Below the pieces are notes generated by a model that saw nothing but the letters and a program-made list of their open reading frames with translations, was not told where the DNA came from and did no database searches. The translations under genes were made by a program, and so were the position numbers. Below are positions 3,775 to 28,940 of a DNA stretch of 64,000 bases, one piece after another; position 1 is the stretch's first letter; the number at the start of each line of letters is the position of its first letter. This DNA comes from Taibaiella sp. (GTDB lineage: Bacteria > Bacteroidota > Bacteroidia > Chitinophagales > Chitinophagaceae). The stretch spans positions 14,495 through 78,494 of the forward strand of contig JAIOYR010000004.1 in NCBI GenBank assembly GCA_021740995.1, read 5' to 3'.

Positions 3775-3906
3775 TTTTTGCGCACTTTTTTGCAGAATTT
3801 TTATTTTTCGATTAACTAATTGATTATTAAGTAGTTGAATCTAAAACGGGGGCTGATTTTTGCGCAAAAGTTGCGCACTTTTACTCGCGTGATTTTTGTA
3901 ATATTT
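3775..3906 (-). repeat. Left copy of a ~130-bp repeat module (two AAAAGTGCGCAA motifs around an AT-rich imperfect palindrome)
   Basis: 3857-3906 is 48/50 identical to the reverse complement of 28795-28844. Confidence 0.85.
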
Positions 3907-4292
3907 GTTACCCCAGCCCTAAAGGGAGGTGTTGCGTGAGCGCAGTACTAATGCATAAATGATGTCAAACTGTTTTTTAAATTAAAATTGAGACATTTCA
4001 AACTGTAGCCATTATAGTATTTAGATTTATAATCATAGTTTTTGGCACAAAGGTGCGATATGGTAACGGTTTCGACAAGACGGGAATCTATGATACTACG
4101 CTTTTCGTACTATCATATACAGCTACGTGTATATCATAAAAATTTCTTGCAGCCATGGGCGTGGCTTTGGGCTGATTTTGACTGTGTTTTGAGATTGGTA
4201 ATATGAAATACCTCTCCAGCCACGTTTCGGGGGGGGGGCAACATTACAAGGTGATGAGTGCGCGCCGTAGAACCCCACCCGATAGCCAGCTC

Positions 4293-4540
4293 GTTGTTCC
4301 TGATGTTAGCGCAGCGCATCAGGAACTGCAAATATGGCCCCGTTCTCCGAACGTCTTCATATTGATGAAGCTAAAAGATAGCATTAGCCCCCTGCTTGGT
4401 GTAGCATAAAAACATTGTTTGGCTTATTATTCTCTTTACTATAGCTTTGGTACAACCACTCAGCAGCAGTGCATCAATTCCGTTCGGAGAACGGCTGCTT
4501 ATAGTTAGTTCCTGATGCCCTTCGGAACATCAGGAACAAC
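4293..4540. mobile_element. REPIN/MITE-like element: two ~60-bp inverted arms, each with two hairpins, around a ~127-bp core
   Basis: Left arm 4293-4353 (gttgttcctgatg..catcaggaac..ccgttctccgaacg) is an imperfect reverse complement of right arm 4481-4540. Confidence 0.75.
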
Positions 4541-4655
4541 AGGTGAATGGCGGTGGTAATGGTTTGAACAAAAGAAAAAGTATGACTGACCATCTTTTAA
4601 AAGTGTTTAATTCTAAATATTGTATAAACATGCAAGGTATGCCTAAACCATAAAA

Positions 4656-5222
4656 ATGTTATTCATGAAGCAAAATTCTATTATTCTCTTGTTTTTATTT
4701 TTTAATGGACTGGTTTCTGCACAAAGCGCAAAAAATATAAAAAAATATTTTGATACAGGCTTATACTCTTTGATCGATTCTGTATATTTAATGGACCAGC
4801 ATAGTCGTTTGTATATACTATATGACGAGATGGATGAGTCTATAATTATGCACAAAAAACATGATAGCTTTTTTACGTATGAAGGTTTCTTATCTTGCTA
4901 TACCTGCAAGGGCAGAGGTTCTAAAGGTTCTACATATTCTGGGTACATTAAGAAAGGGAGGTTTGTAGTATTTATTCAGGACTATTTTAGTGGACGAGAT
5001 TCAGTTTTTGTAGATTTCTCAAAATCAAAACCTTCTATTCAAAAAATAATAAGAAGAGCATATTTTAATGAAAAAGTGCAGGGACCGGATGATGCTGGGA
5101 ACTATATATTTTTAGCAAAAAAATATGCACCAATAACTAAATTTCACTTGCCTTTAGACCGGAAAGATCCGCTGGTATTGGAATACTTTAATATTAGGCG
5201 TATCAAATGGAGAAAAATGTAG
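4656..5222 (+). CDS. Hypothetical exported protein, possible orphan immunity protein
   Basis: 188-aa AT-rich ORF with a signal-peptide-like N-terminus and its own terminator, next to a toxin-like gene. Confidence 0.7.
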   Translation: MLFMKQNSIILLFLFFNGLVSAQSAKNIKKYFDTGLYSLIDSVYLMDQHSRLYILYDEMDESIIMHKKHDSFFTYEGFLSCYTCKGRGSKGSTYSGYIKKGRFVVFIQDYFSGRDSVFVDFSKSKPSIQKIIRRAYFNEKVQGPDDAGNYIFLAKKYAPITKFHLPLDRKDPLVLEYFNIRRIKWRKM

Positions 5223-5289
5223 TGTTTAGCGAACCGAATTAAACATTTCTTTAAATAAGATAGCCCCCCAACACCATAAGTACAATGAT

Positions 5290-5332
5290 AATACCCGCCT
5301 TCGCATACAGTGTGCGAGGGCGGGTTATTTTT
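5290..5332 (+). terminator. Intrinsic terminator
   Basis: acccgccttcgca-tacag-tgtgcgagggcgggt followed by tattttt. Confidence 0.75.
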
Positions 5333-5409
5333 ACTCATTCCCACATTACCCACATTACCACATTGACCCTTTACCCAATCACCCTCTTAACATTTTAACA
5401 CCAATAACT

Positions 5410-7185
5410 ATGCCTCGTTTCTCTGCCTTTTGGCTCACACACTACAAAGAGATAGGTAACTGCTGCATGACAGCACCCCTAAAAAAACTAAAAGTACGCA
5501 ACAATGTGAAGGTAGAAGTGCCCGACAAGTTTCAGTCTTTGCAGTTGGTAATAGACTATATAGATACGGGCTGGATGGACCAGAAACAACTAAAATGGAT
5601 AGGCTGGGATATACAGGGCTGGTATGCATGGACCGACCCCAACGGTATGCTGTACCGTATAAAAGACCTGCAGCGCAATGAGGATGGCAGGGAGTATGAA
5701 AAAGAAGTAGAAGAGATAGTAGCCAGCGGCGACCCACGTACCCACCAGGGCAACCCTACGGCAAAGGAGCTATACACCTTTGAGCGGGATATGCAGCGCA
5801 ACTGCGGCTTCTGCCCCGATGGCAGCGGCGGTGGCACCGATGCCGACCATGAAGGCGACAAAGGAAGCGACACTAAGAAAGAAAACATAGCAGATGATAT
5901 AGACCTGGATAAGCTGATGCAGGGCGATATAACAGACTTTATGCCCGGCGATGATGGTTTGAGCTATGTACCTGAAATGCGGGAGTATGCCCCTATAATA
6001 GACACTACCGAGATAACGGAGACGGGACATATCACAGGTAGTATGGATGATTATACGCCTACAGATGATGGGCAATACATTCCGCAAGGGATAGTGGAGG
6101 ACGTAAATGCAGAATATGGTGGTGGCAAAATAACGGAGACAATAACCCCTGTGCCCTACCTGCCACCTGTAGCCATACCGACAGCAGTACCCACACCACA
6201 GCCCACCCCACAAAGAACAACACCGGTGTGGAGAAGCCCGGTAACGGACACCACAACTGTGGCTACGCCAGCCCAAAGCCCTTTTCAGGAAATACTAAAG
6301 GCTCGTGTAAAATTAGTACCTGAATACGAATGGGGTGGCAGTAATTTACCTCGCCCATATAAGCCCGGGGCGGTGGGTGTTTACAATCCTACACCTACAT
6401 TTCCATCTTTACCAAAGCCGGATAAAGAGCCTATAGATTGTGCAACTTTAATACAATATGCAGAAATGGCAGATGACGTATATGGAGAAAAGCACTACCT
6501 ATCAAAAAAATGGAGCGATGCAGCGAATATGATTCCTGAAAGAGTACAAATTATTCTTAGTAAAAATGCTCATACTGGATTATCTGTTAACCTCTATTTT
6601 CGTACCCTCAGTAATGGAGTTAAGGAATTTGTTTTTGTATTTCGAGGCTCTGAACTTGAATTGAATGATTGGTTAAATAATATACAGCAACCATTTGGGA
6701 AAGCAGAACAGTATAGACTTGCCGCAGAAATAGCCCAGATAATGGAGAATAGAATAAAAATCGAAAACGCTCAACTTGTATTTGTAGGTCATTCCCTTGG
6801 AGGTGGCTTGGCCAGCCTTGCAGCCCTTGTTACTGGTAGACCAGCTACTACATTTAATGCTCCTGGATTATCTACCACTACAATAAGAAACAATGGTGCT
6901 TATGGGAAAACGGCGAGAATAGATGCATATGTAGTAGAAGATGAGATTCTAAACTACTATTTAGAGTCTGTTAACTTAGGAGCAACGGCTAACTTAGGAT
7001 CTGGAGTTAAAAAACATGTGTTGTCTCCGAAGAAACCTGATTTGTTTGATAAAATTCCGCCAGTGACCAGCAAGCTACCATCACACCCCGCCATGATAGC
7101 TTTTAAAGGTGCTGGTGGCTATTTGCGATACCGAAAACATAAAATGGAGGAGGTGTTAAAACTCATCAAAGAGAATTGTTTTTAA
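5410..7185 (+). CDS. Modular protein: unknown N-terminal domain, Pro/Thr-rich linker, C-terminal class-3-lipase-like alpha/beta hydrolase (candidate polymorphic toxin)
   Basis: FVFRGSE, GHSLGGGLA nucleophile elbow, TFNAPG, candidate catalytic Asp (VEDE) and His (KHKM); base composition drops near 6400. Confidence 0.8.
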   Translation: MPRFSAFWLTHYKEIGNCCMTAPLKKLKVRNNVKVEVPDKFQSLQLVIDYIDTGWMDQKQLKWIGWDIQGWYAWTDPNGMLYRIKDLQRNEDGREYEKEVEEIVASGDPRTHQGNPTAKELYTFERDMQRNCGFCPDGSGGGTDADHEGDKGSDTKKENIADDIDLDKLMQGDITDFMPGDDGLSYVPEMREYAPIIDTTEITETGHITGSMDDYTPTDDGQYIPQGIVEDVNAEYGGGKITETITPVPYLPPVAIPTAVPTPQPTPQRTTPVWRSPVTDTTTVATPAQSPFQEILKARVKLVPEYEWGGSNLPRPYKPGAVGVYNPTPTFPSLPKPDKEPIDCATLIQYAEMADDVYGEKHYLSKKWSDAANMIPERVQIILSKNAHTGLSVNLYFRTLSNGVKEFVFVFRGSELELNDWLNNIQQPFGKAEQYRLAAEIAQIMENRIKIENAQLVFVGHSLGGGLASLAALVTGRPATTFNAPGLSTTTIRNNGAYGKTARIDAYVVEDEILNYYLESVNLGATANLGSGVKKHVLSPKKPDLFDKIPPVTSKLPSHPAMIAFKGAGGYLRYRKHKMEEVLKLIKENCF

Positions 7186-7225
7186 TAAATAATTTTTAAT
7201 GCATAATTTTGTAAAAAATCAATGA

Positions 7226-8092
7226 ATGAATAGAAAAGCCCACAAATACATTAAGCTATTTTTTGTATTCAATTTACTTTGCTTTTTGATAAGTTGTAGT
7301 TCATACATCGAAGAGGAAAATCCGTCTTATAAAAATGGAGAAAAATATAAAAAATACAACTACACTTTTGCATTTGGAAGGCACAAAGACAAACTGTTAG
7401 GTTATGACATAGAGCTTTATAAAAATACTGATGCGTGGGGCTTGGCAAAAGCTGTTTTTGAACAAGATACAATAAAAATAAGTGATATCTGCAGGAAGAA
7501 AAGACACCTTTTATTTAATAAAGAGAATAAATGGGGAATGACCCTACTAGCTTGGTCGGTATTTAACAACAGATATTTTTCGGCAAAAATACTTTTGGAA
7601 AACGGAGCTGATCCAAATGCCAAAACAAATACAGGTGACACGCCATTTATTGATGCCGCTTCTAAAGAAACAACAAACTATTTGAAATTATTGTTGAAAC
7701 ACGGAGGCAAAGTCAATCATGTTATAATTATTGACACCATTTGCTGTACACCGTTAAAAATAGCAGCCAGCACTAGTTTTCAAAATTCAAAAATTCTTAT
7801 AGATGCCGGTGCGGATGTGAATTTCTCTTGCGATAGCATAAACACAGCTATTTCTTATGCTGCATTTTCAAATAAAATTGAAACCATAGAGTACTTAATC
7901 GAGAAAAATGCGAATTACAAAAATCCAATTTATAAATTCGACGACAAAGTATTCTATTTACTCGATTTTGTGAAAAACATGGAATTCGAAAACGGCAGCA
8001 GGGAGCAAGAAATAAAAAAGAGAGTACTGAAATTCCTGCGTGAGCATGGGGCTGATAGCAGCAACTATGGGGAGCCAATCTTACCGAAATAA
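7226..8092 (+). CDS. Ankyrin-repeat lipoprotein, candidate cognate immunity protein
   Basis: Lipobox LISC; ankyrin motifs GMTLLAWS..LLENGADPN, GDTPFIDAA, TPLKIAA..LIDAGADVN. Confidence 0.85.
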   Translation: MNRKAHKYIKLFFVFNLLCFLISCSSYIEEENPSYKNGEKYKKYNYTFAFGRHKDKLLGYDIELYKNTDAWGLAKAVFEQDTIKISDICRKKRHLLFNKENKWGMTLLAWSVFNNRYFSAKILLENGADPNAKTNTGDTPFIDAASKETTNYLKLLLKHGGKVNHVIIIDTICCTPLKIAASTSFQNSKILIDAGADVNFSCDSINTAISYAAFSNKIETIEYLIEKNANYKNPIYKFDDKVFYLLDFVKNMEFENGSREQEIKKRVLKFLREHGADSSNYGEPILPK

Positions 8093-8240
8093 AGAAATAG
8101 AATAAAGTATGAGTAAAGATCTTCTCTCGTAGCCGGATTTCCTTTTTCGAGGACATTTAGTTGCTAAACTTATTCAGCTTTCGTACCTTAATGTCGACAG
8201 GCACGGCAGAAAAAGCCGGAGACCCGGCTAGCTCGGATAT

Positions 8241-8978
8241 TCAAGTCAGGCAATTTTCATTGGCATCAAATATTCTTATTCGGTACCCTGACCCATAGAG
8301 GTTTTCTATTCCCAGTGATGGTTCATCTTTCAGTAGCTTACGGATACGGGTGATATACACATCCATACTCTTTGCCGAAAAATAATCATCGTTGCCCCAC
8401 ACTTGTTTTAGCATATCGCTCCTGCTCACATATTTTCCGGCATGGTGCATCAGTTTAGACAATACATCGGCTTCGCGCCGGCTCAGTTTTTTTTCCAAGC
8501 CATTGATGTACAATGTCCGGTTTTGGGTGTTCAACACAGTATTGCCCAGCATTATAGGGTCGGTTTCACTGGTTTGCACAAGGATGTTGCTGCGCTTGAG
8601 TATGACCATTATGCGATAATATAATTCCTTGAAGCTGAAGGGCTTGGTTACATAATCATCTGCGCCTGTTTCAAAACCTCCTATCCTGTCGGCTTCCTGC
8701 ATTCTGGCTGATAAATAAATAAACGGGGTGGCAGGATGCAGCGACTTCAATCTGGCGCCCAGCTTTAAACCATCGATTTCAGGCAGCATAATATCGAGGA
8801 TACAGAGGTCGAAGGTGCCGTTCTGTATTGCGTTCATACCTTCTTTGCCGGTTTTGGCCAGTGTTACTTCTACACCCTTTGCCTGCAGGTTTTCAACAAT
8901 CAGGTATCCCAGATTTACATCGTCTTCTACCAGCAGGATATGAATTTTTTCACGAACATTATTTTCCATAATTTCCAT
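8241..8978 (-). CDS. OmpR/PhoB-family response regulator
   Basis: ILLVEDD, LDIMLPEIDG, GADDYVTKPF, winged-helix C-terminus (SMDVYITRIRK, YGSGY). Start may be 8969. Confidence 0.95.
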   Translation of the reverse strand: MEIMENNVREKIHILLVEDDVNLGYLIVENLQAKGVEVTLAKTGKEGMNAIQNGTFDLCILDIMLPEIDGLKLGARLKSLHPATPFIYLSARMQEADRIGGFETGADDYVTKPFSFKELYYRIMVILKRSNILVQTSETDPIMLGNTVLNTQNRTLYINGLEKKLSRREADVLSKLMHHAGKYVSRSDMLKQVWGNDDYFSAKSMDVYITRIRKLLKDEPSLGIENLYGSGYRIRIFDANENCLT

Positions 8979-10482
8979 TTCTTAACGGTAATCTGATAAA
9001 AAATTTAGAGCCTATGCCCTTTTTGCTCCACACTTCTATGGTGCCCCCATGTGCGGTGATGATACCCTTTACATAACTCAGGCCCAGCCCAAACCCCTTG
9101 GTATTGTGGGTGTCGCCCTCATGAGCCCTGAAAAATTTATCAAAGATATGTTTTTGGGTTTCGCTGCTCATGCCTATACCACTGTCGGCAACGGTGAGCA
9201 ATAGTTCGTTGTTTTTTTCCTCAAGCCGGATAACTATTTCCGGTATGCCTTGCCTGTATTTGATGGCATTGTCCAGCAGATTCACGATGCTGTTGAGCAG
9301 GTGTGTTTCATCGGCATATACTATTGGGTTTGCCGTGCTTTCAAACATTATCTTACCGCCCAGCGAGTCGCACTGAAGCGTATAGGATGCCATTACTGTA
9401 TGAAGCAGCTGTGCCACATCCACCTCTTCCTTGTGCAACAAAAGGGCTCCCTCGTCCATTACTGCCACCTGCAACGAACGTTCTATGTTTTCCCTTAGCC
9501 TGACGGATTCTGCAGAGATGATATTGAATACATTGCTGGTTTTGGGGTCTAGTGATTTGTTGCTGTCCTCCAGGGTCTCCAGGGCAAGGCTTATATTGGC
9601 CATAGGGGTATTGAACTCGTGGGTAAGGTTGTGAATAAAATCAGACTTCATTTTGGATAGCTGATCCTGCCTGAGGTATAAGCGCACAAATCCGTAAAAG
9701 GAAAAGGTAAGCAGCAGCACTACGGCTATGGACAACAGCAACAGATAGTTTGTGAAATAGACAGCAGGTGTATCTGGAAAAACCAGGGCCAACTTGTAAG
9801 GGGACATAAACCGGTTGTCTGTAAACAGGGCTGTACTAAAGGGTGATGACAACAAAGCGCTGCTATCTGCGACCCGGGTGTGGCAGGCAATCTTGTTGTT
9901 TTCAAGGTTGATGATGCCAAAGCCAAAATGGGGGTCTATATGTTCTTTTTCAAGGCTTGTACGTATGAGGGAATCAACAAAAGCCATGTCTAACAATGAG
10001 TCGATTGGTTTTTTGTTCCTGATGACATCGTTTAATCTTGCCCCGTGCAGTGTTTCATAAAATGAGTTTTTTTCGCTTGCATATCCTGTGGTATCTCTTG
10101 AAATAATCGTTGCCCTCATGTGCACATCCAAAGTAAAGGGCATGGATAAGGTCATAGTGTTCATAAAACCAACCTTTTCTTTATCGCGGGTAAAGGCTTC
10201 GTCATAATATATCCCAACGGTATCTGATTTGCCATACCTATTTTCGTGCATCATAAAAAAACGATCGCCCAAATCCACAAAAACCTTTCCGTATAGCTCA
10301 AAACAAAAGCTGTGATTTACCAGTTGTACACTTACGTTATTAAGTGCATTTCCAACCCGGAGTTGTCTTTCCCGGTATTCCGCTTTCGAAGCCTCTAAGA
10401 GCCACATTACCTGTATAACTATCAGTGAAACCAGCATAGTACTGGTCACAGCCATCAACAAGTAAATCCACTTCTTTCGCAT
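8959..10482 (-). CDS. Membrane sensor histidine kinase
   Basis: Two TM helices, H-box THEFNTP, N-box NLLDNAIKY, DSGIG, GFGLGL. Confidence 0.95.
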   Translation of the reverse strand: MRKKWIYLLMAVTSTMLVSLIVIQVMWLLEASKAEYRERQLRVGNALNNVSVQLVNHSFCFELYGKVFVDLGDRFFMMHENRYGKSDTVGIYYDEAFTRDKEKVGFMNTMTLSMPFTLDVHMRATIISRDTTGYASEKNSFYETLHGARLNDVIRNKKPIDSLLDMAFVDSLIRTSLEKEHIDPHFGFGIINLENNKIACHTRVADSSALLSSPFSTALFTDNRFMSPYKLALVFPDTPAVYFTNYLLLLSIAVVLLLTFSFYGFVRLYLRQDQLSKMKSDFIHNLTHEFNTPMANISLALETLEDSNKSLDPKTSNVFNIISAESVRLRENIERSLQVAVMDEGALLLHKEEVDVAQLLHTVMASYTLQCDSLGGKIMFESTANPIVYADETHLLNSIVNLLDNAIKYRQGIPEIVIRLEEKNNELLLTVADSGIGMSSETQKHIFDKFFRAHEGDTHNTKGFGLGLSYVKGIITAHGGTIEVWSKKGIGSKFFIRLPLRNGNYGK

Positions 10483-10532
10483 ACATCAAATATCGAAAAA
10501 ATAGACAGCATTGCACACAGAAAGGTTGTCAA

Positions 10533-10600
10533 TTAAGTATGTTTTAAGTATTGCAACCGTTATTAACTATGTTTTAAGTATGACTTAAGTATAGTTAACC
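10533..10600. promoter_or_regulatory. Tandem TTAAGTAT direct repeats at 11-bp period, probable OmpR-family operator
   Basis: Copies at 10533, 10544, 10563 (ttaactat), 10574 and 10585, between the divergent TCS and Kelch genes. Confidence 0.7.
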
Positions 10601-10662
10601 AAAAGTCACAAACGCCTGTGTGAGCAGGTGCGTCTTAGATAGAAACTAAAAAAAGATTTTAC

Positions 10663-20690: not shown

Positions 20691-20697
20691 TGCACAG

Positions 20698-20705: not shown

Positions 20706-20742
20706 CTACTGCCACGGCTCTTAGCATTGTACAATCCTTAGT

Positions 20743-21900
20743 TTAATTTGTACTTTTTACTTTTTCAGTGTAATAATGGTTATATGCCTGGTCTATAAAT
20801 CCATTGCCCAGTTGGTTGAAGTTGAAGATGGTATACACCAGCACTACACAGTCTGCCTTGCCTATAGCACCTGTCCAGTCATACTCCCTGATGTAGGTAA
20901 ACTTATGGTCGTTGATATCATGCATCTCGTCGAAGTAGCGCCAGAATTCGCACTGGTCATTCATCTTGTACACTATCCCGAATTCTACCATTTTATGAGC
21001 ATAGCTATCGCCTATGTATATGGCGTTTATTTTCTTTTGCCCGCTATCCGGCACGTCCTGTATCACCGGGTAGGCAAGGGTCTCGGTAGCTACCGGGAAG
21101 ATCAGATTCAGCTCGCGTGCCACATCATCATCGCCTGCTCTCAGCTTGCTGGTATGCTCCATCTGCGTCCATACAGGGTGCTGCACTTTTATATTTGTCA
21201 GCCGCTCCATATACCGTATCAGGCTGTCGCCACCCAGTATGGCACCATAGTTGGTCCAGTGTATACCCTGCAACGAAAATAGTGGCTCTTTACTCTTCCC
21301 CTTCATAGCCACGAACCACGCATCCATGTCTACCTGATTGATGCCCAGCGAGTCGCAGATGTGCCTGTAGGTAGCATAGTTGGTGGTGCCCTGCTTCATG
21401 CGCCCCCAGCGGTCAGGGAAGTACTCGGGGTAAGAGGTAGCCTTGCTGGGTGCATACACCAGTATCAGCGACTTGCCCATATGGGCCAGCGTATCCTGTA
21501 TGGCTTTGAGCTTCACAGAGTTTTGCAGTATAGCCTCATAGCCTATATAGTCCAGCCCCACATACGCATCCAGGTAAGGCCGCTGAAACAAATACCGTTC
21601 TTTGCCCTTCACCGTCCATGCGGTGTGGCACTTATCCAGCAGCGAGTAGTCTAGCTGATTGTTTAGCCGCACCAGGTCTGCCCTGAAGCCCGTGGCATCA
21701 TTCAGGTATTTTTCTTTCTGCTGCTGGTAGCCCCCTTCTCTCCATCCCTCTATGCTAAATGTAGTATCGTCTGCTGCTTTGAACCCACCCTCCAGCGCAG
21801 CACTTTCTACAAAGCTGAAGCAATGCTGTGCCAGCGGCAGCAACATCACAATGAACATGCAGTAGAATAGCCCCTTCTTGATTGTAGTTTCCATCATCAT
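20743..21900 (-). CDS. AlgX/AlgJ-like SGNH O-acetyltransferase
   Basis: N-terminal TM anchor, LVYAPSK, GIHWTNYGA, IGDSY; start placed at the ATG overlapping the MBOAT stop (TGATG). Confidence 0.8.
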   Translation of the reverse strand: MMMETTIKKGLFYCMFIVMLLPLAQHCFSFVESAALEGGFKAADDTTFSIEGWREGGYQQQKEKYLNDATGFRADLVRLNNQLDYSLLDKCHTAWTVKGKERYLFQRPYLDAYVGLDYIGYEAILQNSVKLKAIQDTLAHMGKSLILVYAPSKATSYPEYFPDRWGRMKQGTTNYATYRHICDSLGINQVDMDAWFVAMKGKSKEPLFSLQGIHWTNYGAILGGDSLIRYMERLTNIKVQHPVWTQMEHTSKLRAGDDDVARELNLIFPVATETLAYPVIQDVPDSGQKKINAIYIGDSYAHKMVEFGIVYKMNDQCEFWRYFDEMHDINDHKFTYIREYDWTGAIGKADCVVLVYTIFNFNQLGNGFIDQAYNHYYTEKVKSTN

Positions 21901-23324
21901 CAGAACCTGAAATAAATAAACGGATTGAAAGTAGATACGGTAATGCGCCCTGCCGATATGATAAACAATGCAATGCCCAGGCACGCCATAGCCATATGCA
22001 TGGTCACCGTATAGTCTTTGTAAAACACCTTTTCCTGCAGCCTTTTGCCGGCCTCAGTCAGTGTGATAAACGAAAAGAAGATAGCTGCTGCCAGAAACAC
22101 CAGATATTCCTTGTCAGGCATCCATCCCCGGGTGTCTGCATGCCAGCTAAACATCCTTTTGAAATAGCCCAGCGCAGCATGAAAGTATTCTATCTTGAAA
22201 AATACCCACCCTATCATTATCACCGGGAAGGTATACAGGCATGCCGCCTTGCCCAGGCGCTGCAGCCACCTGCCCAGAAACAACCGCTCCACCACCAGAA
22301 AAAAACCATGATACAAGCCCCAAGCCACAAACCCCCATGCCGCACCATGCCACAGGCCCGACAGCAGGAACACCAGCCACAGGTTGAAGTATAGCCGCAG
22401 CTTATTGTTCACCTTGTTGCCACCCAGCGGAATGTATAGATAGTTGCGCATCCAGGTGCCCAGCGTTATGTGCCACCTGCGCCAGAAGTCCGTAACAGAC
22501 ACTGCGGTATAAGGGTTATTGAAGTTCTCCGGAAAGCGGAAACCCATCATCAGGCCCAGCCCTATAGCCATATCAGAGTAGCCCGAAAAATCGAAGTATA
22601 TCTGGAAGGTATAGCTCAGCGCACCCAGCCATGCGGTCATGGTTCCCAGCTCATGTTGTGGCATCGTGAAGATGGCATCCGCACTGGCACCCATTACATT
22701 GGCTATAAGCACTTTTTTTCCCAGCCCTATCAGGAAGCGATACAGCCCTCTCAGCTTGTTATCCGTGGTCTCAAACCCCGTATGGTCATATATCTGATTG
22801 GCAAAGTCGTGAAAGCGGATGATGGGGCCTGCTATCAGTTTGGGGAAGAGGATGATGTACAACTGATAGTCCCAAAAGTTGCGCAGCGGCTTGTGTACCT
22901 TTCTGTACACATCTACCACATACGTAATGGTCTCAAAGGTGTAGAACGATATACCTATGGGCAGTATCAGCCTTGCCCATGCTATCTCCTTTATACCCAT
23001 GCGCTGCAGCACATGGTTCATATTCTCTACAAAGAAGTTGCTGTACTTAAAGTAAAACAGCAGCCCCAGATTGATACTCAGCGACAGGCACAGCAGCAGT
23101 ACCCTTTGTACTTTTTGTACCTGCCTGTCCATCAGGCGCACCACATAAAAGTCTATGATAGTAGTAGCCAGCAGTATGAATATAAACTTAGGAGCACCCC
23201 ACGCATAAAAGAAGACACTGCCCGCAAGTATAATAGCATTTTTGTATCGCTTATCTGCCAGATAATAGATAAGAAAGAACACAGGCAGAAAGTAAAAAAG
23301 AAATACAATGCTGCTGAATACCAT
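21900..23324 (-). CDS. MBOAT family O-acyltransferase (AlgI/PatA/DltB-like)
   Basis: LPIGISFYTFE, FPKLIAGPI, YFDFSGYSDMAIG, FWRRWHITL, SGLWHGA. Confidence 0.95.
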   Translation of the reverse strand: MVFSSIVFLFYFLPVFFLIYYLADKRYKNAIILAGSVFFYAWGAPKFIFILLATTIIDFYVVRLMDRQVQKVQRVLLLCLSLSINLGLLFYFKYSNFFVENMNHVLQRMGIKEIAWARLILPIGISFYTFETITYVVDVYRKVHKPLRNFWDYQLYIILFPKLIAGPIIRFHDFANQIYDHTGFETTDNKLRGLYRFLIGLGKKVLIANVMGASADAIFTMPQHELGTMTAWLGALSYTFQIYFDFSGYSDMAIGLGLMMGFRFPENFNNPYTAVSVTDFWRRWHITLGTWMRNYLYIPLGGNKVNNKLRLYFNLWLVFLLSGLWHGAAWGFVAWGLYHGFFLVVERLFLGRWLQRLGKAACLYTFPVIMIGWVFFKIEYFHAALGYFKRMFSWHADTRGWMPDKEYLVFLAAAIFFSFITLTEAGKRLQEKVFYKDYTVTMHMAMACLGIALFIISAGRITVSTFNPFIYFRF

Positions 23325-23441
23325 AATAACAACGGTTGCTTACTGCGTGGCAAAAAATGAGAAACACGAAATGAAAATTTGAAATTAGTGTTTATTTTTT
23401 TATCAAACAATTAAGGGCAACTAGCCTGGGAGATGGTTTTT

Positions 23442-23475
23442 ACGAGAAAAAACGCCTGATGGCGTTTTTTCTCGT
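23442..23475 (-). terminator. Perfect 15-bp-stem hairpin, terminator of the small lipoprotein gene
   Basis: acgagaaaaaacgcc-tgat-ggcgttttttctcgt. Confidence 0.75.
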
Positions 23476-23497
23476 TATACATACTTCAGATTGAAAA

Positions 23498-23725
23498 TTA
23501 CAACCTGCAGGAAGTACCACCTGGCAAACTCTTATTGGCCTGATCTTCAAAATTGTTGCAGGATTGTTTTGCATCAGCATAATTCGAATTGTCTATATCA
23601 TGCTTTATGTCAGCCGACACTCCGCCCACTACCGTAGTACAAGTACATGTGTAGTCTTTTTTGCAAGAGGCAAATGAAGTCATTCCTAAAAGCGCTATCA
23701 TCGTAATAATTCGTGTTTTTGTCAT
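23498..23725 (-). CDS. Small cysteine-rich lipoprotein
   Basis: Lipobox FASC followed by KKDYTCTC; own promoter-like TACTTTTG and terminator. Confidence 0.8.
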   Translation of the reverse strand: MTKTRIITMIALLGMTSFASCKKDYTCTCTTVVGGVSADIKHDIDNSNYADAKQSCNNFEDQANKSLPGGTSCRL

Positions 23726-23944
23726 AGTATTATTGTTTAAAGGCGAAAAACTTTTTCACTGACACAAAAGTAGGCTGCCCCTATATGTAAACTGTTACAT
23801 AGCTGGAGTTATCTCTTACATCAATCACACATTCACACTCATAGAGTATGTCAGCAATTACCTTCCTCAGTATTTTTCATTTGCTTAACCTGCCTTCTCA
23901 ATGCAGTTGGCGAAACCTTCATTGCTACCTTAAAGCACTCCTCC

Positions 23945-24155
23945 CCTTTGCGTCCCTGTCTGCCGACCAGGTAGATTCGCATCACCGCAGTAAAACCCTC
24001 TTAGTGTCCCTCGTGCCCTTTGCCTGCCTGCGGTAAAAAATCCTTTGTGTCCTTTGTGCACTTTGTGGTGAACCCTACCCGCCCCTTTGTGTCCCTGTCT
24101 ACCGATTAGGTAGGTCCGCGCCCCTGCCTACCGCAGGCAGGTCCGCGGTGAAAAA
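23945..24155. repeat. Cluster of CTTTG(C/T)G repeats with inserted CCTGYCTRCCG..AGGYAGG palindromes
   Basis: Uninterrupted unit ctttgtgtcctttgtgcactttgtggtgaa lies beside units interrupted by cctgtctgccgaccaggtag, cctgtctaccgattaggtagg and cctgcctaccgcaggcagg. Confidence 0.75.
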
Positions 24156-24215
24156 CCAAACACGCCACTTTTCGCAAAACATTTTTAACTTTATGAAAAT
24201 CAAAAATTCAGACAC

Positions 24216-24560
24216 ATGAAATACTACTTCAGAGCCTGGCAGAAGTACATCACCTTCAAGGGTCGCGCCAGCCGCAAAGAGTATTGGTACTTTACCTTTA
24301 TCAATCTGGCTATTAGTTTGACACTGCACTTTGGCAGCCTCCATTTGCTGGGCCAGGAAGAGGTGATTCTAAACCAGACTATTGCCGACCTCTCCTATCT
24401 GGGTCTGGTGCTCATGCCACTGATATGTGTAGGTGTGCGCCGCATGCAGGACGTAGGCAAAACCGGCTGGCACCTGATGATACCCGTATACGGCATCTGG
24501 CTTGCCTGCCTCGACGGCCACGAAGAAGACAATAAAAACGGCCCCAAGGCTACGTATTAA
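24216..24560 (+). CDS. DUF805 family membrane protein
   Basis: KYITFKGRASRKEYWYF, VGVRRMQDVGKTGW. Confidence 0.9.
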   Translation: MKYYFRAWQKYITFKGRASRKEYWYFTFINLAISLTLHFGSLHLLGQEEVILNQTIADLSYLGLVLMPLICVGVRRMQDVGKTGWHLMIPVYGIWLACLDGHEEDNKNGPKATY

Positions 24561-24971
24561 AAATGAAGGATAACAGCAACTGCACCCTATTTGAATAAAA
24601 TTCTTTACCTGCCATTAATAACACATCAGGATTGATAATCAAGCAGTTGCACATAGATGCTACACCCTACATCACCCCATGGTGACCCCATAAATGAAAG
24701 CTATTGGCGCACACAAAGAATTTTGGTGTAAAAGCATGCTTGCCAGGCTTTAAATAGGCAGCAAAATGTGTGCCAGAATCAGGTGAAACTAAAAGAATTT
24801 TTGTGCGTGTGTGGCACACTGCCGGAAGTATTCCACACCTGTGTAGGTGGGTTATGTAACTATTCTTCAAACGTGACACGTATAGGATTGCAACGGGCAA
24901 TGTTTTTGTAGCTTTCAGAATGAATATTATAGAAATACCTTTTGACATATTCCTCATAAAACGACCAGCCA

Positions 24972-25097
24972 ATGACCTGCGGTTATTGCGGTTCTAGAAT
25001 AAATTTTGAGGATTATTCTTACAGTAGCGATCAATGCCAGATACATAAATGCCTAAATGCAACATGTGGTTATGTGTTTCTTGCGGCGGAAGATTAG
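24972..25097 (+). CDS. Small zinc-ribbon protein, 41 aa (below the ORF-track cutoff)
   Basis: MTCGYCGSRINFEDYSYSSDQCQIHKCLNATCGYVFLAAED: CxxC...CxxxxC, translated by hand. Confidence 0.55.
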   Translation: MTCGYCGSRINFEDYSYSSDQCQIHKCLNATCGYVFLAAED

Positions 25098-25165
25098 AAA
25101 TATAAAGAGATAAGAAAGGTATGTTTGATTATCCTGTTAGCGAATAAACATTTATATATTAGAGC

Positions 25166-25570
25166 ATGATCAATAAAGATGTGATAAATGTAGCATGTGC
25201 AATTATTTTTAAGCACGACAAAATTCTAGTTGCTCAGAGGAGTGAGAAAATGAAACTTCCTTTAAAGTGGGAATTCCCTGGCGGAAAAGTAGGTGATAAT
25301 GAAAGCGCAGAAGAATGTATTCACAGAGAACTGATTGAGGAACTAAACATTACAATAAGTATCAAAAAATCGGCAAATAGTTACGTGCATGATTATGGAA
25401 ACTTCAAAATCAATCTCATACCATTTATAGCAGAATATTTAAGTGGTGATATGATTTTAACAGAACATAAAAATGCTCAATGGTTATCCCTAAGTGAATT
25501 GTCAACTCTGGATTGGGCACCAGCAGACCTTCCAATACTTCACGATTTAATAAACTCTCCAAATGCTTAA
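25166..25570 (+). CDS. MutT/NudG-like (deoxy)nucleoside triphosphate pyrophosphohydrolase
   Basis: Nudix box WEFPGGKVGDNESAEECIHRELIEEL, DWAPADLP. Confidence 0.93.
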   Translation: MINKDVINVACAIIFKHDKILVAQRSEKMKLPLKWEFPGGKVGDNESAEECIHRELIEELNITISIKKSANSYVHDYGNFKINLIPFIAEYLSGDMILTEHKNAQWLSLSELSTLDWAPADLPILHDLINSPNA

Positions 25571-28500
25571 ACTAGGGCTTTATGAACAGCTGATAAATCG
25601 GCTTTTTCTGACTAAATTAAACAAGCTTGGTACATCAAATTTTTATGTCAAAGAATCAATTTTAGACAAAGAAGAAGCTTCCAAATACTTGAGCAAGTAT
25701 TTAGGAGAGGTAATCGGAGTAGCCTTATCAACAATTAAGGATGAAAATAATGTTGAAAAGCAAATCGAACTCTCAAATAAGATAATCAAATTATTAAACG
25801 AGGAACTAAAAACTACAGATTTTGAAGATGACATTATTGAAATTCAAGGGAGGATATTGACTGCAATTTTTTCACGCTTGGATATAGATTATGTAAAAAT
25901 AGACGACCATATAAAACACATTACGCCATATACAAGATTTACCCAGAGCGAACTATTTATTGGGGGAAACAACCTAAAAATATCTTTGGAAAGTGAACTG
26001 AAGAAAGAGATTTTATCTGCCAATGAGATTTGCTTTTTAGTCTCCTTTATAAAGTATGGAGGAATCAGAGTGTTCCAAAAAGAATTTGAAGAATTCACCA
26101 ATAACGGGGGTAAATTAAAGATAATAACGTCATCTTATATGGGAGCAACAGACGTGAAAGCTGTTGAGTACTTAGCCAATTTGAGAAATACCGAAGTAAA
26201 AGTTTCGTATAATACACAGAGTGAACGATTGCATGCTAAAGCGTATCTATTTCTTAGAGACAGTGGATTTCACACTGGATATATTGGATCATCAAATCTC
26301 TCAAGATCTGCAGTTACCAACGGATTGGAATGGAATTTGAAAGTCACAACGAAAGAAATTGGCCACATAATTAAGAAGTTTCACGACACGTTTGAGTCTT
26401 ATTGGGAAGATAAAAGCTTCGAAAGTTTTGATAAACACAAGGATAGAGAGAAACTACAAGACTCAATAAATAGACAAAAAGGCACCAGTAATTACACAAT
26501 TGCATATTTTGACTTATCTCCATTTACATACCAAAAAGAAATACTAGAAAGACTTGAAGCAGAAAGAGTATTACATAATAGGTATAGAAATTTAATTGTT
26601 GCTGCGACAGGGACTGGAAAAACTGTAATAGCGGCCTTTGACTATAAGAAATTTAAAGAGAGCAAAAGTCGGGCTCGATTATTATTTGTTGCTCACAGAA
26701 AAGAGATACTTGAGCAAGCTCAAGCAACATTTAGAGGGGTATTAAAAGACAATAATTTCGGCGAATTATGGGTAGATGGAATTTTGCCAACTAAAAATGA
26801 TGTGGTTTTCGCATCCGTTCAAACCTTAAATAATCAATTGCCCAATTCTAAGCTCACGCAAGATTACTATGACTATATTGTAATAGATGAAGTACATCAT
26901 ATTGCCGCAAAAAGCTATAGACCAGTTTTGGAAGCGTTCAAGCCTCAGGTTCTTTTGGGACTTACGGCTACTCCTGAAAGAATGGATAATGAAAATATTC
27001 TTGTTGACTTTTGTAATGTCATTGCCGCTGAAATAAGGTTACCGGAAGCGCTAAATAGAGAACTACTATGTCCATTCCAGTATTTTGGCATTTCGGACAG
27101 CGTTGATTTATCCAAAGTTAAGTGGGAAAAAGGAAGGTACATTCAAAGTGAATTAACGCAATTGTACATTAATAACCGCCAAAGACTGAGTGAAATACTA
27201 CTAAATTTAGACAAGTACTTGACTGACATAAATAATGTTAGAGCTTTAGGATTTTGTGTATCGCAAGAGCATGCAAAATACATGGCAGAGAATTTCAAGG
27301 AAGCGGGTTTAAAGGCAGAATACCTTACAAGTAACAATAGTGAATTAAGAACAGAGTTACGAACGAGGCTTTTATCAGGTGATATCAATTACCTTTTTGT
27401 TGTAGATATATTTAACGAAGGCGTCGATATACCTGAAGTAGATACGGTTCTATTCCTAAGACCTACAGAAAGCTTAACTGTATTTTTGCAACAATTAGGA
27501 AGAGGCTTAAGAAAGGCAAAAGGCAAAGAGTGTTTGACCGTGCTTGACTTTGTTGGCAATAGTAGGCCAGAATATGATTTTGAGAAGAAGTTCAGAGCAT
27601 TAATTGGAAAAACAAACACATCCACTTCCAAAGAAATTGAAGATGAATTCCCACATTTGCCTTTAAATTGTTCCATCGTACTTGAGAAGAAAGCAAAAGA
27701 ATATATATTAGAGAACATTAAGAGTGCAACGAGTATTAATAGAAAGCAACTTCTAGATAAAATACGCAGCTTCAAATACAATAGCAGCAAATCAATTACC
27801 CTGTATAACTTTATTAGCGAAAATAACATTTCACTTGAATTTATATACAAGAAAGGGAGCTGGAAGAGACTGTGTGTAGAAGCAGGAATAGAAAGAGAAT
27901 TTCCAACAAACTGTGAAAAAGAAATAACTCGAGCTATCAGTAAGAAATGGCTTCTGTGTAATTCTATTTCCTATTTACAATTCATATTAGATTTAGCTAA
28001 AATGAACTTCTGTGTTAACGTTGATTCATTAAGTGAAAACGAAATATTAATGTGTACTATGTTGCATTACGATGTGTGGCAGGAGGCTAGTAAAAACAAT
28101 GATTTGGGTAGTAGTATTGCCGCAATTGGCGCCAATAGAGATTTGGTGTCTGAAATAGTGGAAGTGCTCGAAATTCTAATTGACAAAATCGATTTTCTAG
28201 AGAAACCTATTGACTTGAACTATGCTATGCCACTAAAGGTATACAGTAGGTATACTCGAGATCAAATTTGTTCCGCCTTTGGATGTAATACTATTGATGA
28301 AAAATTACTATCGCAGGCAGGTGTGATAAACATTAAAGACAAAAACACAGAGCTGCTATTTGTGACGTTAGAAAAATCAGAAAAGGAATATTCGCCAACG
28401 ACTCTTTATGATGACTATGCAATAAGTGAAACATTATTTCATTGGCAGTCTCAAAATTCAGCTAAACCCGATCTCGGTGCAGGACTTAGCTACATTACTC

Positions 28501-28703
28501 AAAAGGAAACAGGTAAGAACATTTTACTTTTTGTAAGAGAGAAAAACAAAGACGATATGGGTAATACAATCGGGTATGTCTTCCTTGGAAATGTTAACTA
28601 TGTTAAGCATTACCATCAGAAACCGATGAGTATAACATGGGAATTGAACGAACCGATACCTGCATACATATGGAAAGACTCTGCAAAGATGTCTTCAAGC
28701 TAG
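25563..28703 (+). CDS. PLD nuclease + SF2 helicase + DUF3427-like domain; SauUSI-like type IV restriction enzyme
   Basis: RLHAKAYLF and GSSNLS (PLD), ATGTGKT, DEVHH, GLTATPER, QQLGRGLR, C-terminal YDDYAISETLFHWQSQN; overlaps the Nudix gene by 8 bp; AT-rich. Confidence 0.88.
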   Translation: MLKLGLYEQLINRLFLTKLNKLGTSNFYVKESILDKEEASKYLSKYLGEVIGVALSTIKDENNVEKQIELSNKIIKLLNEELKTTDFEDDIIEIQGRILTAIFSRLDIDYVKIDDHIKHITPYTRFTQSELFIGGNNLKISLESELKKEILSANEICFLVSFIKYGGIRVFQKEFEEFTNNGGKLKIITSSYMGATDVKAVEYLANLRNTEVKVSYNTQSERLHAKAYLFLRDSGFHTGYIGSSNLSRSAVTNGLEWNLKVTTKEIGHIIKKFHDTFESYWEDKSFESFDKHKDREKLQDSINRQKGTSNYTIAYFDLSPFTYQKEILERLEAERVLHNRYRNLIVAATGTGKTVIAAFDYKKFKESKSRARLLFVAHRKEILEQAQATFRGVLKDNNFGELWVDGILPTKNDVVFASVQTLNNQLPNSKLTQDYYDYIVIDEVHHIAAKSYRPVLEAFKPQVLLGLTATPERMDNENILVDFCNVIAAEIRLPEALNRELLCPFQYFGISDSVDLSKVKWEKGRYIQSELTQLYINNRQRLSEILLNLDKYLTDINNVRALGFCVSQEHAKYMAENFKEAGLKAEYLTSNNSELRTELRTRLLSGDINYLFVVDIFNEGVDIPEVDTVLFLRPTESLTVFLQQLGRGLRKAKGKECLTVLDFVGNSRPEYDFEKKFRALIGKTNTSTSKEIEDEFPHLPLNCSIVLEKKAKEYILENIKSATSINRKQLLDKIRSFKYNSSKSITLYNFISENNISLEFIYKKGSWKRLCVEAGIEREFPTNCEKEITRAISKKWLLCNSISYLQFILDLAKMNFCVNVDSLSENEILMCTMLHYDVWQEASKNNDLGSSIAAIGANRDLVSEIVEVLEILIDKIDFLEKPIDLNYAMPLKVYSRYTRDQICSAFGCNTIDEKLLSQAGVINIKDKNTELLFVTLEKSEKEYSPTTLYDDYAISETLFHWQSQNSAKPDLGAGLSYITQKETGKNILLFVREKNKDDMGNTIGYVFLGNVNYVKHYHQKPMSITWELNEPIPAYIWKDSAKMSSS

Positions 28704-28794
28704 TACAGGTGTCACCCTCCCCATTTTCTTGGCACACATTTTGTGGCATTATTGTACCTGTCAGATGCTAACAACTCTTCTTACCACCAGAATA

Positions 28795-28940
28795 AAATAT
28801 TACAAAAATCGCGCGAGTAAAAGTGCGCAATTTTTGCGCAAAAAGTAAGAGGTTCTAAAGTTCTAAATAATTGAAAATCAAGTATAAAACCCTAAAACCA
28901 TGCAAACAAAAAAAGTTCAGGAAAAGTGCGCAATTTTCAA
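28795..28940 (+). repeat. Right copy of the repeat module, inverted relative to 3775-3906
   Basis: 48/50 match over the first 50 bp; second AAAAGTGCGCAA at 28922. Confidence 0.85.

What the first reader, a model, noticed from the sequence alone, without database searches (positions are those of the whole stretch)
3775..28940. A 25-kb accessory region bracketed by a 48/50-identical inverted repeat with att-like architecture and no recombinase
Seen: 3857-3906 is the reverse complement of 28795-28844 with 2 mismatches (aaatattacaaaaatcRcgcgagtaaaagtgcgcaaYttttgcgcaaaaa). Each copy continues outward through an AT-rich imperfect dyad (aactaattgattattaagtagtt / taattgaaaatcaagta) to a second AAAAGTGCGCAA about 93-103 bp away. 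The copies sit where conserved genes (wzz/thyA on the left, porX on the right) give way to toxin, defence and other variable genes. Inference: arm-site + core-site modules of a tyrosine-recombinase-type element. They could be the ends of a non-autonomous island or invertible segment, or independent solo scars marking an insertion hotspot.
Basis: partly seen in the sequence, partly recalled or inferred. Interest (0 to 1): 0.62.

Follow-up and report, generated by a model that had tools for sequence, protein, structure and literature searches.

The report
Dispersed oriented repeat, not island ends
The two inverted 50-base repeats are real, but they are just two of about 24 copies of a small oriented repeat scattered between genes; they do not bound a 25-kb mobile island, although foreign, AT-rich defence and toxin genes do tend to sit on one fixed side of this repeat.

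Summary
The 48/50 inverted repeat (3857-3906 / 28795-28844) is confirmed, as are the second AAAAGTGCGCAA boxes 93 and 103 bp away and the AT-rich dyads.

It is the best-conserved part of a roughly 150-nt oriented intergenic module. The module reads: A-part, double box GTGCGCAAnTTTTGCGCAA, dyad TTGATnATCAA, A-tract, third box. This 3.9-Mb genome holds about 24 copies on 20 contigs. One is a third copy 3 kb left of the window.

Overall the two window copies are only 64% identical. No recombinase lies nearby. In relatives the interior genes are scattered, and no wzz-porX empty site exists. The 25 kb is not one unit.

The module is a DNA-level, protein-binding-type element. Its boxes are conserved while its spacers are not, and box spacing is quantised at 73/82/93/103 bp. 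It has no conserved RNA fold. It is restricted to a few freshwater Bacteroidota genomes and is present or absent at orthologous sites.

The module is also polar. Its B end faces core genes. Its A end abuts AT-rich islets of 3-9 kb, including Nudix+SauUSI-like, lipase toxin, DarTG and a PLD-helicase system. This GC bias recurs in three genomes. The mechanism is not shown.

The parts
3778..3906 (-). Left module copy (subfamily II). On the + strand it reads: B box TTGCGCACTTTT 3778-3789, T-tract 3798-3809, dyad region 3814-3836 (core TTGATTATTAA 3820-3830), double box TTGCGCAAAAGTTGCGCAC 3860-3878, A-part 3879-3906. The B end faces wzz and the A end faces the interior.
   Evidence: (nhmmer E 1e-36)
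28795..28933 (+). Right module copy (subfamily I). It reads: A-part 28795-28818, double box GTGCGCAATTTTTGCGCAA 28823-28841, dyad ATTGAAAATCAA 28870-28881, A-tract 28904-28915, B box AAAAGTGCGCAA 28922-28933. It lies between convergent genes. The A end faces the SauUSI-like gene and the B end faces the 3' end of porX.
   Evidence: E 1e-26
28729..28748 (+). TTGGCACACATTTTGTGGCA motif, found 60-110 nt upstream of the A-part in subfamily-I copies. It looks like a sigma-54 promoter, but most copies have GT where GC is required.
   Evidence: six exact 14-mers in the genome, five of them next to modules
24580..24775 (-). Degenerate, inverted partner of the right unit. It has a perfect 14-nt inverted copy of TGGCACACATTTTG (24762-24775) and a dyad TTGATAATCAA (24632-24642). 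With 28730-28743 it brackets the 3,954-nt Nudix/SauUSI-like islet.
   Evidence: (I23, 100% complementary)
25166..28703 (+). AT-rich islet (GC 0.35-0.39) on the A side of the right copy. It holds a NUDIX gene and a 1046-aa protein with PLD, ResIII/helicase and DUF3427 domains, which looks like a SauUSI-like type IV restriction enzyme.
4656..8092 (+). Mosaic, largely AT-rich stretch on the A side of the left copy. It holds a 188-aa unknown, a 591-aa lipase-domain protein (candidate toxin) and an ankyrin-repeat protein.
2610..3578 (-). wzz-like gene, followed by a Wzy_C gene at 1134-2609. This is the core operon faced by the B end of the left copy, and the pair is conserved in all 20 relatives searched.
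29057..30616 (-). porX (receiver + PglZ domains), the core gene whose 3' end faces the B end of the right copy.
29013..29044 (.). REP-like hairpin GTGGCACACTTCCAAAAGTGTGCCAC just after porX. A related copy lies at 24809-24840. This is a separate repeat family, also seen in a relative.
   Evidence: (I4)
4292..4545 (.). Two inverted copies of a hairpin element 'E' (4292-4348 and 4481-4545) in the 750-nt non-coding gap on the A side of the left copy. On contig C76 the same element forms 71-nt direct repeats around a DarTG islet.
   Evidence: (I2)

Best explanation
The inverted repeat is the most conserved 50 nt of an oriented intergenic module of about 150 nt, or about 330 nt with its upstream TTGGCAC motif. 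The module exists in about 24 copies in this genome. A congener holds about 30, and two other freshwater Bacteroidota MAGs hold fewer. The two window copies are independent members of this family that happen to face each other, so the 25 kb between them is not a unit. The module is a DNA-level cassette. It has two TGCGCAA boxes 11 bp apart, a TTGATnATCAA dyad and a third TGCGCAA box, all held in helical register, which is the layout expected of a multi-protein DNA complex. Its pattern across genomes is that of a lineage-specific insertion, present or absent at orthologous sites. It is also polar. The B end lies next to core genes, often their 5' ends. The A end is where foreign AT-rich islets of 3-9 kb carrying defence, toxin or regulator genes are found, including both islets in the window. 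My inference is that the module is a duplicative repeat in the style of MITE, NIME or BIME elements, and that it marks and probably promotes a one-sided hotspot for uptake of foreign DNA. This could work by recombination anchored on the shared repeat or through a factor acting in trans. What is shown: copy number, anatomy, phasing, lineage restriction, presence/absence and polarity. What is inferred: protein binding, mobility and any causal role in islet capture.
For: Boxes are conserved while spacers are not (information profile). At the orthologous ychF site, G000 and G014 keep the boxes while the spacers have diverged. Distances from box A1 to box B cluster at 73/81-82/93/103 bp in G000 and at 72/81/93-94/102-103 bp in relatives. 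The only consensus fold is the 7-bp double-box hairpin, and there is no Rfam hit. On lineage restriction, a scan of 185,579 species genomes for the double box gave multi-copy hits only in Loclat_bin-10221, HRSG-E12-bin-86 and Bacteroidia 3_bin.39. Of 18 same-genus genomes, 17 have 0-1 weak hits. On presence/absence, rplM and ychF carry a module in G000 and G014 only, while hemL and ligA carry one in G000 only; acnA carries a full module in G000 and a partial one in G009. On polarity, A-side 3-kb GC averages 0.419 against 0.457 on the B side. Seven of 23 A sides fall below the genome's 5th percentile, against 0 of 24 B sides (Fisher p=0.004). The bias recurs in G014 (16/21, p=0.004) and in HRSG-E12-bin-86 (7/7). 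Islet content is given. For empty sites, between the same two anchors at rplM, G008 has 244 nt, G014 has 655 nt with a module, and G000 has 7,566 nt with module plus islet. At the C76 and C150 sites the flanking core genes are directly adjacent in G014/G002 and in G002 respectively.
Against: No terminal inverted repeat or target-site duplication could be defined, and no transposase or recombinase is linked to the family, so mobility is inferred only from distribution. Fifteen of 24 copies have no AT-rich flank, and only 7 of the 83 AT-rich segments in the genome adjoin a module. The module is therefore neither necessary nor sufficient for islets. Part of the mean A-versus-B GC difference may only reflect longer non-coding DNA on the A side. 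At C76 the islet has its own 71-nt direct repeats about 280 nt away from the module, so the module is not the junction itself. Intergenic DNA is too diverged between species to map exact insertion points.
Confidence: 0.62

Rival explanations
1. Regulated promoter/operator cassette. The double box carries a Bacteroidota -7-type promoter element (AAnTTTTGC) flanked by 7-4-7 direct repeats, which would be bound by a winged-helix regulator of the OmpR/PhoB type. The dyad and distal box would help by looping. The module would drive or control the B-side gene, and the link to islets would be secondary.
For: The native promoters of rplM, acnA and ychF read TAnnTTTGC, and ychF reads TACCTTTGCGCAAA. 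The double box CAAnTTTTGCGCAA matches this apart from the first T. The B end faces a gene's 5' end in 16 of 23 copies, and in tandem spacers the module is co-directional in 8 of 10. Boxes are 11 bp apart and phased with the distal box. Boxes are conserved at orthologous sites.
Against: Six of 23 copies lie between convergent genes, including the right window copy, so they have no gene to drive. The downstream genes are functionally unrelated: rpsO, rplM, ligA, hemL, acnA, katA, wzz and a TonB receptor. These genes keep their own conserved promoters downstream of the module. Close relatives manage without the module. The orientation bias in tandem spacers is not significant (p=0.055).
Confidence: 0.22
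2. The module is one terminal part of the islets themselves, for example the surviving end of transposon-like or integrative defence islets. Copies without an islet would be solo scars left after cargo loss.
For: At C76 and C150, module and islet are absent together from relatives, which a single event would explain. The Nudix/SauUSI-like islet is flanked by two inverted motif-plus-module units, one of them decayed. Phased multiple binding boxes plus a bend site resemble transposon ends.
Against: At rplM, G014 has the module without an islet. At C76 the islet's own 71-nt direct repeats lie inside, away from the module. Seven of eight islets show no module-like sequence at the far end. No transposase was found in any islet examined. 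Fifteen of 24 copies have no islet.
Confidence: 0.1
3. One reading: the two copies are att-type ends of a 25-kb non-autonomous island or invertible segment moved by a tyrosine recombinase in trans.
For: The repeat is real and inverted, with the A ends inward, and the architecture of boxes plus dyad is compatible with an intasome-like site. Both copies sit at synteny breaks relative to G008.
Against: There are about 24 copies, and a closer third copy lies next door. The two copies are only 64% identical outside the 50-mer. None of the six tyrosine-recombinase hits in the genome is near a module. Interior genes are a mix of conserved and foreign blocks scattered in relatives. Synteny blocks between G000 and G008 are only about 3 kb, so breaks at both sites are expected by chance. 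The partner breakpoints carry no module.
Confidence: 0.04

Closest known systems
Neisserial intergenic mosaic elements (NIME: dRS3 + RS repeats) and Correia repeat-enclosed elements
   Same: Both are short multi-copy intergenic repeats that sit next to variable loci. dRS3 is an integration target, and the repeat arrays are proposed to promote recombination with incoming DNA (PMC3898611). Correia elements can create promoters and bind IHF (PMC2649163 abstract). Here too there is a central dyad, a promoter-like box and adjacency to foreign DNA.
   Different: This module is oriented rather than palindromic. It has three copies of one 7-nt box in helical register. It has no clear terminal inverted repeats or TA duplication. 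It has far fewer copies (about 24 against hundreds). The foreign DNA lies on one fixed side.
E. coli BIME / RIB-RIP elements (REP units flanking an IHF site)
   Same: Both are intergenic and modular, with repeated protein-binding units on either side of a central bend-protein-type site (from my own knowledge of the family).
   Different: REP units are imperfect palindromes linked to RAYT transposases. Here the boxes are direct repeats, no RAYT was sought or found, and binding is untested.
Lambda-type att sites / integron attC sites
   Same: Both have several short binding boxes plus a bend site within 100-150 bp, and variable cargo next to the site.
   Different: There is no integrase nearby, no cassette array and no direct-repeat attL/attR pair. 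There are many solo copies, and the islet at C76 uses a different repeat as its junction.
Pho-box-type operators (7-nt direct repeats with a 4-nt A/T spacer, bound by OmpR/PhoB-family regulators)
   Same: TGCGCAA-CTTT-TGCGCAA has exactly the 7-4-7, 11-bp layout, and it overlaps a promoter-like element.
   Different: No regulator has been identified. The flanking genes form no coherent regulon, and copies also sit between convergent genes.

Membership tests
Genomic island bounded by tyrosine-recombinase att sites | A recombinase gene inside or next to the element | tested here: not met
   There is no integrase domain in the 27 main ORFs of 221-35303. Of the six PF00589 hits in the genome, none lies next to a module. 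The nearest is a pseudogene at C19:2736-3095, 8.4 kb from the third copy.
Genomic island bounded by tyrosine-recombinase att sites | Repeats are specific to the two ends and direct for excision | tested here: not met
   There are about 24 copies on 20 contigs. The pair is inverted and only 64% identical overall.
Genomic island bounded by tyrosine-recombinase att sites | Relatives show an empty site with the flanks joined, and the interior moves as one block | tested here: not met
   wzy and porX are 224 kb apart in G002 and on different contigs in G008 and G009. Interior blocks map to four or more separate places.
Invertible segment | Both orientations are detectable in reads or assemblies | not testable with these tools
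MITE (non-autonomous transposon) | Multi-copy, with presence/absence at orthologous sites | tested here: met
MITE (non-autonomous transposon) | Terminal inverted repeats and target-site duplication | tested here: inconclusive
   The TGCGCA core is itself palindromic. In G014 the ends read GTGCGCAATTTTT...AAAAATTGCGCAC, but in G000 the end boxes are direct. No duplication is visible, and the flanks are too diverged to map junctions.
MITE (non-autonomous transposon) | A parent insertion sequence with the same ends | not tested
   Clustering of ORFs within 4 kb of 71 module sites showed no recurrent transposase. No genome-wide transposase scan was done.
Structured small RNA family | A conserved secondary structure with covariation, or an Rfam match | tested here: not met
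   The only consensus pairing is the 7-bp double-box hairpin. No Rfam family matched.
Sigma-54 promoter (for the TTGGCAC...TTTTGTGGCA motif) | GG-N10-GC with TGGCAC-N5-TTGC | tested here: not met
   Most module-linked copies read TTGT rather than TTGC. Only C48 fits.
Integron attC / cassette array | An IntI gene, tandem cassettes and RYYYAAC/GTTRRRY cores | tested here: not met
   Copies are dispersed. No integrase is adjacent. The boxes do not fit the core consensus, by direct reading.

The most novel reading that the evidence does not exclude
The module is a polar 'landing pad'. A factor that binds the phased TGCGCAA boxes and the dyad would direct or stabilise capture of foreign AT-rich defence and toxin islets on the A side only, while shielding the core gene on the B side. 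That would be a system for siting islets without a cis-encoded recombinase, in a group of uncultured freshwater Bacteroidota.
Probability: 0.15. Interest if true: 0.75.

Novelty: new variant of a known kind. Interest (0 to 1): 0.42.

Why it matters
As a claim about a 25-kb island, the finding does not hold. What remains is an undescribed, oriented repeat family in uncultured freshwater Bacteroidota. It has the signature of a multi-protein DNA complex, and foreign defence and toxin genes cluster on one fixed side of it, a GC pattern that recurs in three genomes. If the link is causal, it would give a concrete and testable handle on why defence islets land where they do in genomes that show no integrase at the site. 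If it is not causal, the family is still useful. It marks variable spots, and it is a caution for MAG assembly and for island-calling by flanking repeats.

Tried and rejected
- **RNA genes.** No tRNA or tmRNA and no Rfam family were found in the window or at relaxed thresholds around both copies. An alifold run on 23 copies, both strands, gave only the double-box hairpin. An RNA gene is rejected.
- **Small ORF.** An ORF spanning the B box (MKIKKSQQKCAIL...) loses its frame in C30 and C151, read directly. It is rejected.
- **Sigma-54 promoter.** The TTGGCAC motif mostly lacks the -12 GC. This reading is rejected.
- **Repeat-mediated inversion.** Breakpoints relative to G008 coincide with both window copies. 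However, the partner breakpoints (C19 57683/57777 and about 91.9 kb) carry no module, and synteny blocks are only about 3 kb, so this is rejected as evidence.
- **A linked gene.** Clustering ORFs around 71 module sites gave only T9SS-cargo-like proteins and a Terminase_5-type HTH gene at 3-4 sites. Neither makes a convincing partner.
- **Far-end partners.** Modules or direct repeats were sought at the far ends of eight islets. Only C76 (71-nt direct repeat of another element) and the window's right islet (14-nt inverted repeat) gave anything.
- **Nearby integrase remnant.** The AT-rich stretch with an integrase remnant at C19:1-3100 is separated from the third copy by 8 kb of GC-normal genes, so it is unrelated.
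- **Literature.** A search for TTGCGCAA in Bacteroidetes returned nothing relevant.
Full report
**1.

The window contains a 50-nt inverted repeat, 3857-3906 against 28795-28844, at 48/50. AAAAGTGCGCAA occurs exactly four times: at 3778, 3871, 28819 and 28922. Only 0.57 matches are expected by chance. This is homology, not chance.

**2. It is one family of about 24 copies**

- A fuzzy search of the whole assembly found the 50-mer, with at most 10 mismatches, at 13 sites. The assembly is 3.9 Mb in 151 contigs, and the window is C19:14495-78494.
- The 23-nt double box, with at most 4 mismatches, occurs at 23 sites.
- A profile built from these copies finds 24 full copies on 20 contigs, plus fragments.
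- One copy lies only 3 kb left of the window (C19:11496-11637). It is 95% identical to the left copy over 133 nt.

In the orientation I call A to B, the module reads as follows:

- A-part: AAATATTACAAAAATCRCGCGAGT
- double box: AAAAGTGCGCAAnTTTTGCGCAAGAA
- a spacer of 12-24 nt
- dyad: TTGATnATCAA
- A-tract: GAAAAATAAAAA
- B box: AAAAGTGCGCAA

There are three length classes. Long subfamily-I copies are preceded, 60-110 nt upstream, by TTGGCACACATTTTGTGGCA.

**3. The two window copies are not a matched pair**

The left copy belongs to subfamily II and the right copy to subfamily I. Across 149 aligned columns they are 64% identical, which ranks 65th of 253 pairs. The 50-mer is simply the most conserved stretch of the family. 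The right copy's 50-mer differs by 2, 3, 3 and 4 bases from four different copies.

**4. It is a DNA-level element**

- Information content is high in the boxes and dyad and low in the spacers.
- At the orthologous ychF site, G000 and G014 keep the boxes, the dyad and the upstream motif while the spacers have diverged.
- The distance from the first box to the B box falls into classes of 73, 81-82, 93 and 103 bp in this genome, and 72, 81, 93-94 and 102-103 bp in relatives. The dyad sits at +36 or +47.
- These steps are about one helical turn, so the three elements stay on one face of the helix. With only a few length classes this is suggestive rather than proven.
- No RNA family matches. The only consensus fold is the 7-bp hairpin of the double box. 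A short ORF across the B box is not kept in frame.

**5. The 25 kb is not a unit**

The interior holds:

- a 188-aa unknown, a lipase-domain protein and an ankyrin protein
- an OmpR-type regulator with its kinase
- a kelch T9SS protein, a metalloprotease and a PETase-like T9SS protein
- Dps, AraC, AlgX/MBOAT and DUF805
- a NUDIX gene with a protein carrying PLD, helicase and DUF3427 domains

No recombinase is present. Only 6-8 kb and 24-28 kb are AT-rich. In relatives the conserved blocks lie in separate places. In G002, for example, the regulator/kinase pair is at C1:1.02 Mb, MBOAT is on C7 and the PETase-like gene is on C6. wzy and porX are 224 kb apart in G002 and on different contigs in G008 and G009.

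In the closest relative found, G008 (PorX 93% identical), the gene upstream of wzz is one that lies at C19:90.6 kb here. The 3' neighbour of porX there lies at C19:57.8 kb here. Both module sites are thus synteny breaks. However, blocks between these two genomes are only about 3 kb long, and the partner breakpoints carry no module. I give this no weight.

The genome has six tyrosine-recombinase hits, none next to a module.

**6. Distribution across genomes**

Of 18 same-genus genomes searched, only G014 has many matches, with 31. An exact scan for the double box over one genome for each of 185,579 species gave multi-copy hits in only three assemblies:

- Loclat_bin-10221, which is G014
- a MAG labelled 'Bordetella parapertussis' HRSG-E12-bin-86
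- Bacteroidia 3_bin.39

All three show the same composite layout. An earlier first-reader note from another genome describes what seems to be the same element.

At orthologous sites the pattern is as follows:

- rplM and ychF carry a module in G000 and G014 but not in G008, G009 or G002.
- hemL and ligA carry a module only in G000.
- acnA carries a full module in G000 and a partial one in G009, but none in G014, G008 or G002.
- These genes keep their own conserved promoters (TAnnTTTGC) downstream of the module.

**7. The module is polar**

- The B end faces the 5' end of a gene in 16 of 23 copies. These genes include rpsO, rplM, ligA, hemL, acnA, ychF, katA and wzz.
- Spacer types are divergent 6, convergent 6 and tandem 10, which is about what random placement gives. 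Within tandem spacers 8 of 10 copies are co-directional (p=0.055).
- Three-kb flanks average GC 0.419 on the A side and 0.457 on the B side. The genome mean is 0.437 with sd 0.030.
- Seven of 23 A sides, and 0 of 24 B sides, fall below the genome's 5th percentile. The paired test gives p=0.004.
- The bias recurs in G014 (A below B in 16 of 21, p=0.004) and in HRSG-E12-bin-86 (7 of 7).

The AT-rich blocks start at the A end and stop sharply after 3-9 kb. Their cargo is as follows:

| Site | Cargo on the A side |
|---|---|
| C76 | DarT + macro-domain protein (DarTG) and an 818-aa unknown |
| C150 | PLD-SNF2 helicase + a 1180-aa protein not scanned against Pfam + AAA ATPase |
| C3 | HNH-HIT protein |
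| C48 | three unknowns |
| rplM site (C50) | 7.5-kb AT-rich cluster; from reading the sequences it looks like two-component regulators and kinases (not scanned against Pfam) |
| C14 | three proteins that look like an AraC-type regulator and two short-chain dehydrogenases (read from sequence, not scanned) |
| Window, right copy | NUDIX + SauUSI-like protein |
| Window, left copy | 188-aa unknown + lipase-domain protein + ankyrin protein |

**8. Empty sites in relatives**

- **rplM.** Between the same two conserved anchors (C50:59726 and 67297), G008 has 244 nt, G014 has 655 nt containing a module but no islet, and G000 has 7,566 nt with module plus islet.
- **C76.** The two flanking core genes abut in G014 and G002.
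- **C150.** The two flanking core genes abut in G002.

These islets rejoin syntenic genes at their far ends, so they are real insertions and not assembly chimeras.

**9. Fine structure of two islets**

The NUDIX/SauUSI-like islet is bracketed by a perfect 14-nt inverted repeat of TGGCACACATTTTG (24762-24775 / 28730-28743). A dyad at 24632 beyond the left arm marks a decayed, inverted module unit. Only six exact copies of that 14-mer exist in the genome, and the other five adjoin modules.

At C76 the DarTG islet is flanked by 71-nt direct repeats of a different hairpin element, about 280 nt from the module. Copies of that element also lie on the A side of the left window copy (4292-4348, 4481-4545) and of the third copy. 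The module itself is therefore not the junction.

**10. How it most likely works**

Shown: a lineage-restricted, oriented, phased box-dyad-box repeat, present or absent at orthologous sites, with foreign DNA on one fixed side.

Inferred: the module binds proteins, spreads by duplication or transposition, and makes its A side a preferred place for foreign DNA. This could happen by recombination anchored on the shared repeat, since donors from module-bearing relatives would carry the same anchor. It could also happen through a trans-acting recombinase.

The main rival is a regulated promoter cassette. The double box CAAnTTTTGCGCAA resembles the local -7 element, and its 7-4-7 repeats resemble a Pho-box-type operator. 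Against this stand the convergent sites, the unrelated downstream genes, the intact native promoters and the module-free relatives.

**11. Comparison with known systems**

The nearest parallels are neisserial NIME/dRS3 arrays and Correia elements. dRS3 is an integration target, and the arrays are proposed to promote exchange with incoming DNA at adjacent loci (PMC3898611). Correia elements can create promoters and bind IHF (PMC2649163 abstract). E. coli BIME/RIB elements are another parallel, from my own knowledge. This family differs in four ways: it is oriented rather than palindromic, it is built from three phased direct boxes, it has few copies, and it is one-sided with respect to foreign DNA.

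**12. Limits**

- Gene calls near modules are my own longest-ORF heuristic.
- Intergenic DNA is too diverged between species to map insertion points to the base.
- Part of the mean GC contrast may come from non-coding length.

Noticed in passing
window 4292-4348 and 4481-4545; also G000 C76:37120-37190 and 42212-42282: A hairpin element (…GTTCCGGATG-loop-CATCCGGGAAC…) has six copies in the genome. On C76 two direct 71-nt copies (90% identical) flank a 5-kb AT-rich DarT/macro-domain islet like attL/attR. Other copies lie on the A side of two modules.
   Followed up: partly
window 3907-3945; G000 C93:21.1-21.7 kb, C45:12.7-13.0 kb, C1:2.46-2.68 kb: A repeat of about 40 nt, AACCCCGACCCTAAAGGGAGGTGT..GTGAGCGCAGTAG, forms long tandem arrays. 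Two of the arrays lie directly beside paralogues of a Terminase_5-type HTH gene. One unit follows the left module.
   Followed up: partly
window 29013-29044 and 24809-24840: A REP-like hairpin GTGGCACACTTCCAAAAGTGTGCCAC is also present, duplicated together with modules in 212-bp tandem units, in relative G014 (L013).
   Followed up: no
G000 C50:59696 and the orthologous rplM upstream regions in G014, G008, G009 and G002: The dyad ATTGATwATCAA sits about 40 nt upstream of the rplM -33 element in all five genomes, including those without modules. Genome-wide there are 35 copies against about 7 expected. Many are paired with other 11-bp-phased box types (TCCCACTTTTCTCCCAC; GTGCCA...). It may be a general regulator or bend-protein site.
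   Followed up: partly
G000 C19:1-3100 (outside the window, 11 kb to its left): A stretch with GC 0.29-0.31 ends in a tyrosine-recombinase pseudogene (C19:2736-3095, one in-frame TGA). This looks like a separate decayed integrative element at the contig start.
   Followed up: partly
G000 C76:37277-42245 and C150:11909-20316: Two candidate defence islets were seen. One holds an 818-aa unknown plus DarT and a macro-domain protein (DarTG). The other holds a PLD-SNF2 helicase, a 1180-aa protein not scanned against Pfam, and a 528-aa SMC/AAA ATPase.
   Followed up: partly
locus L031 and nine others (CALQJX02...): A MAG deposited as 'Bordetella parapertussis isolate HRSG-E12-bin-86' carries at least 10 copies of this Bacteroidota module with the same composite layout. 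The organism label looks wrong.
   Followed up: no
window about 29-43 kb (C19:43.5-57.7 kb) and C19:18.2-91.9 kb: Relative to G008, the gene order implies two nested inversions on this contig: about 14 kb from the 3' end of porX, and about 74 kb from the wzz upstream region.
   Followed up: partly
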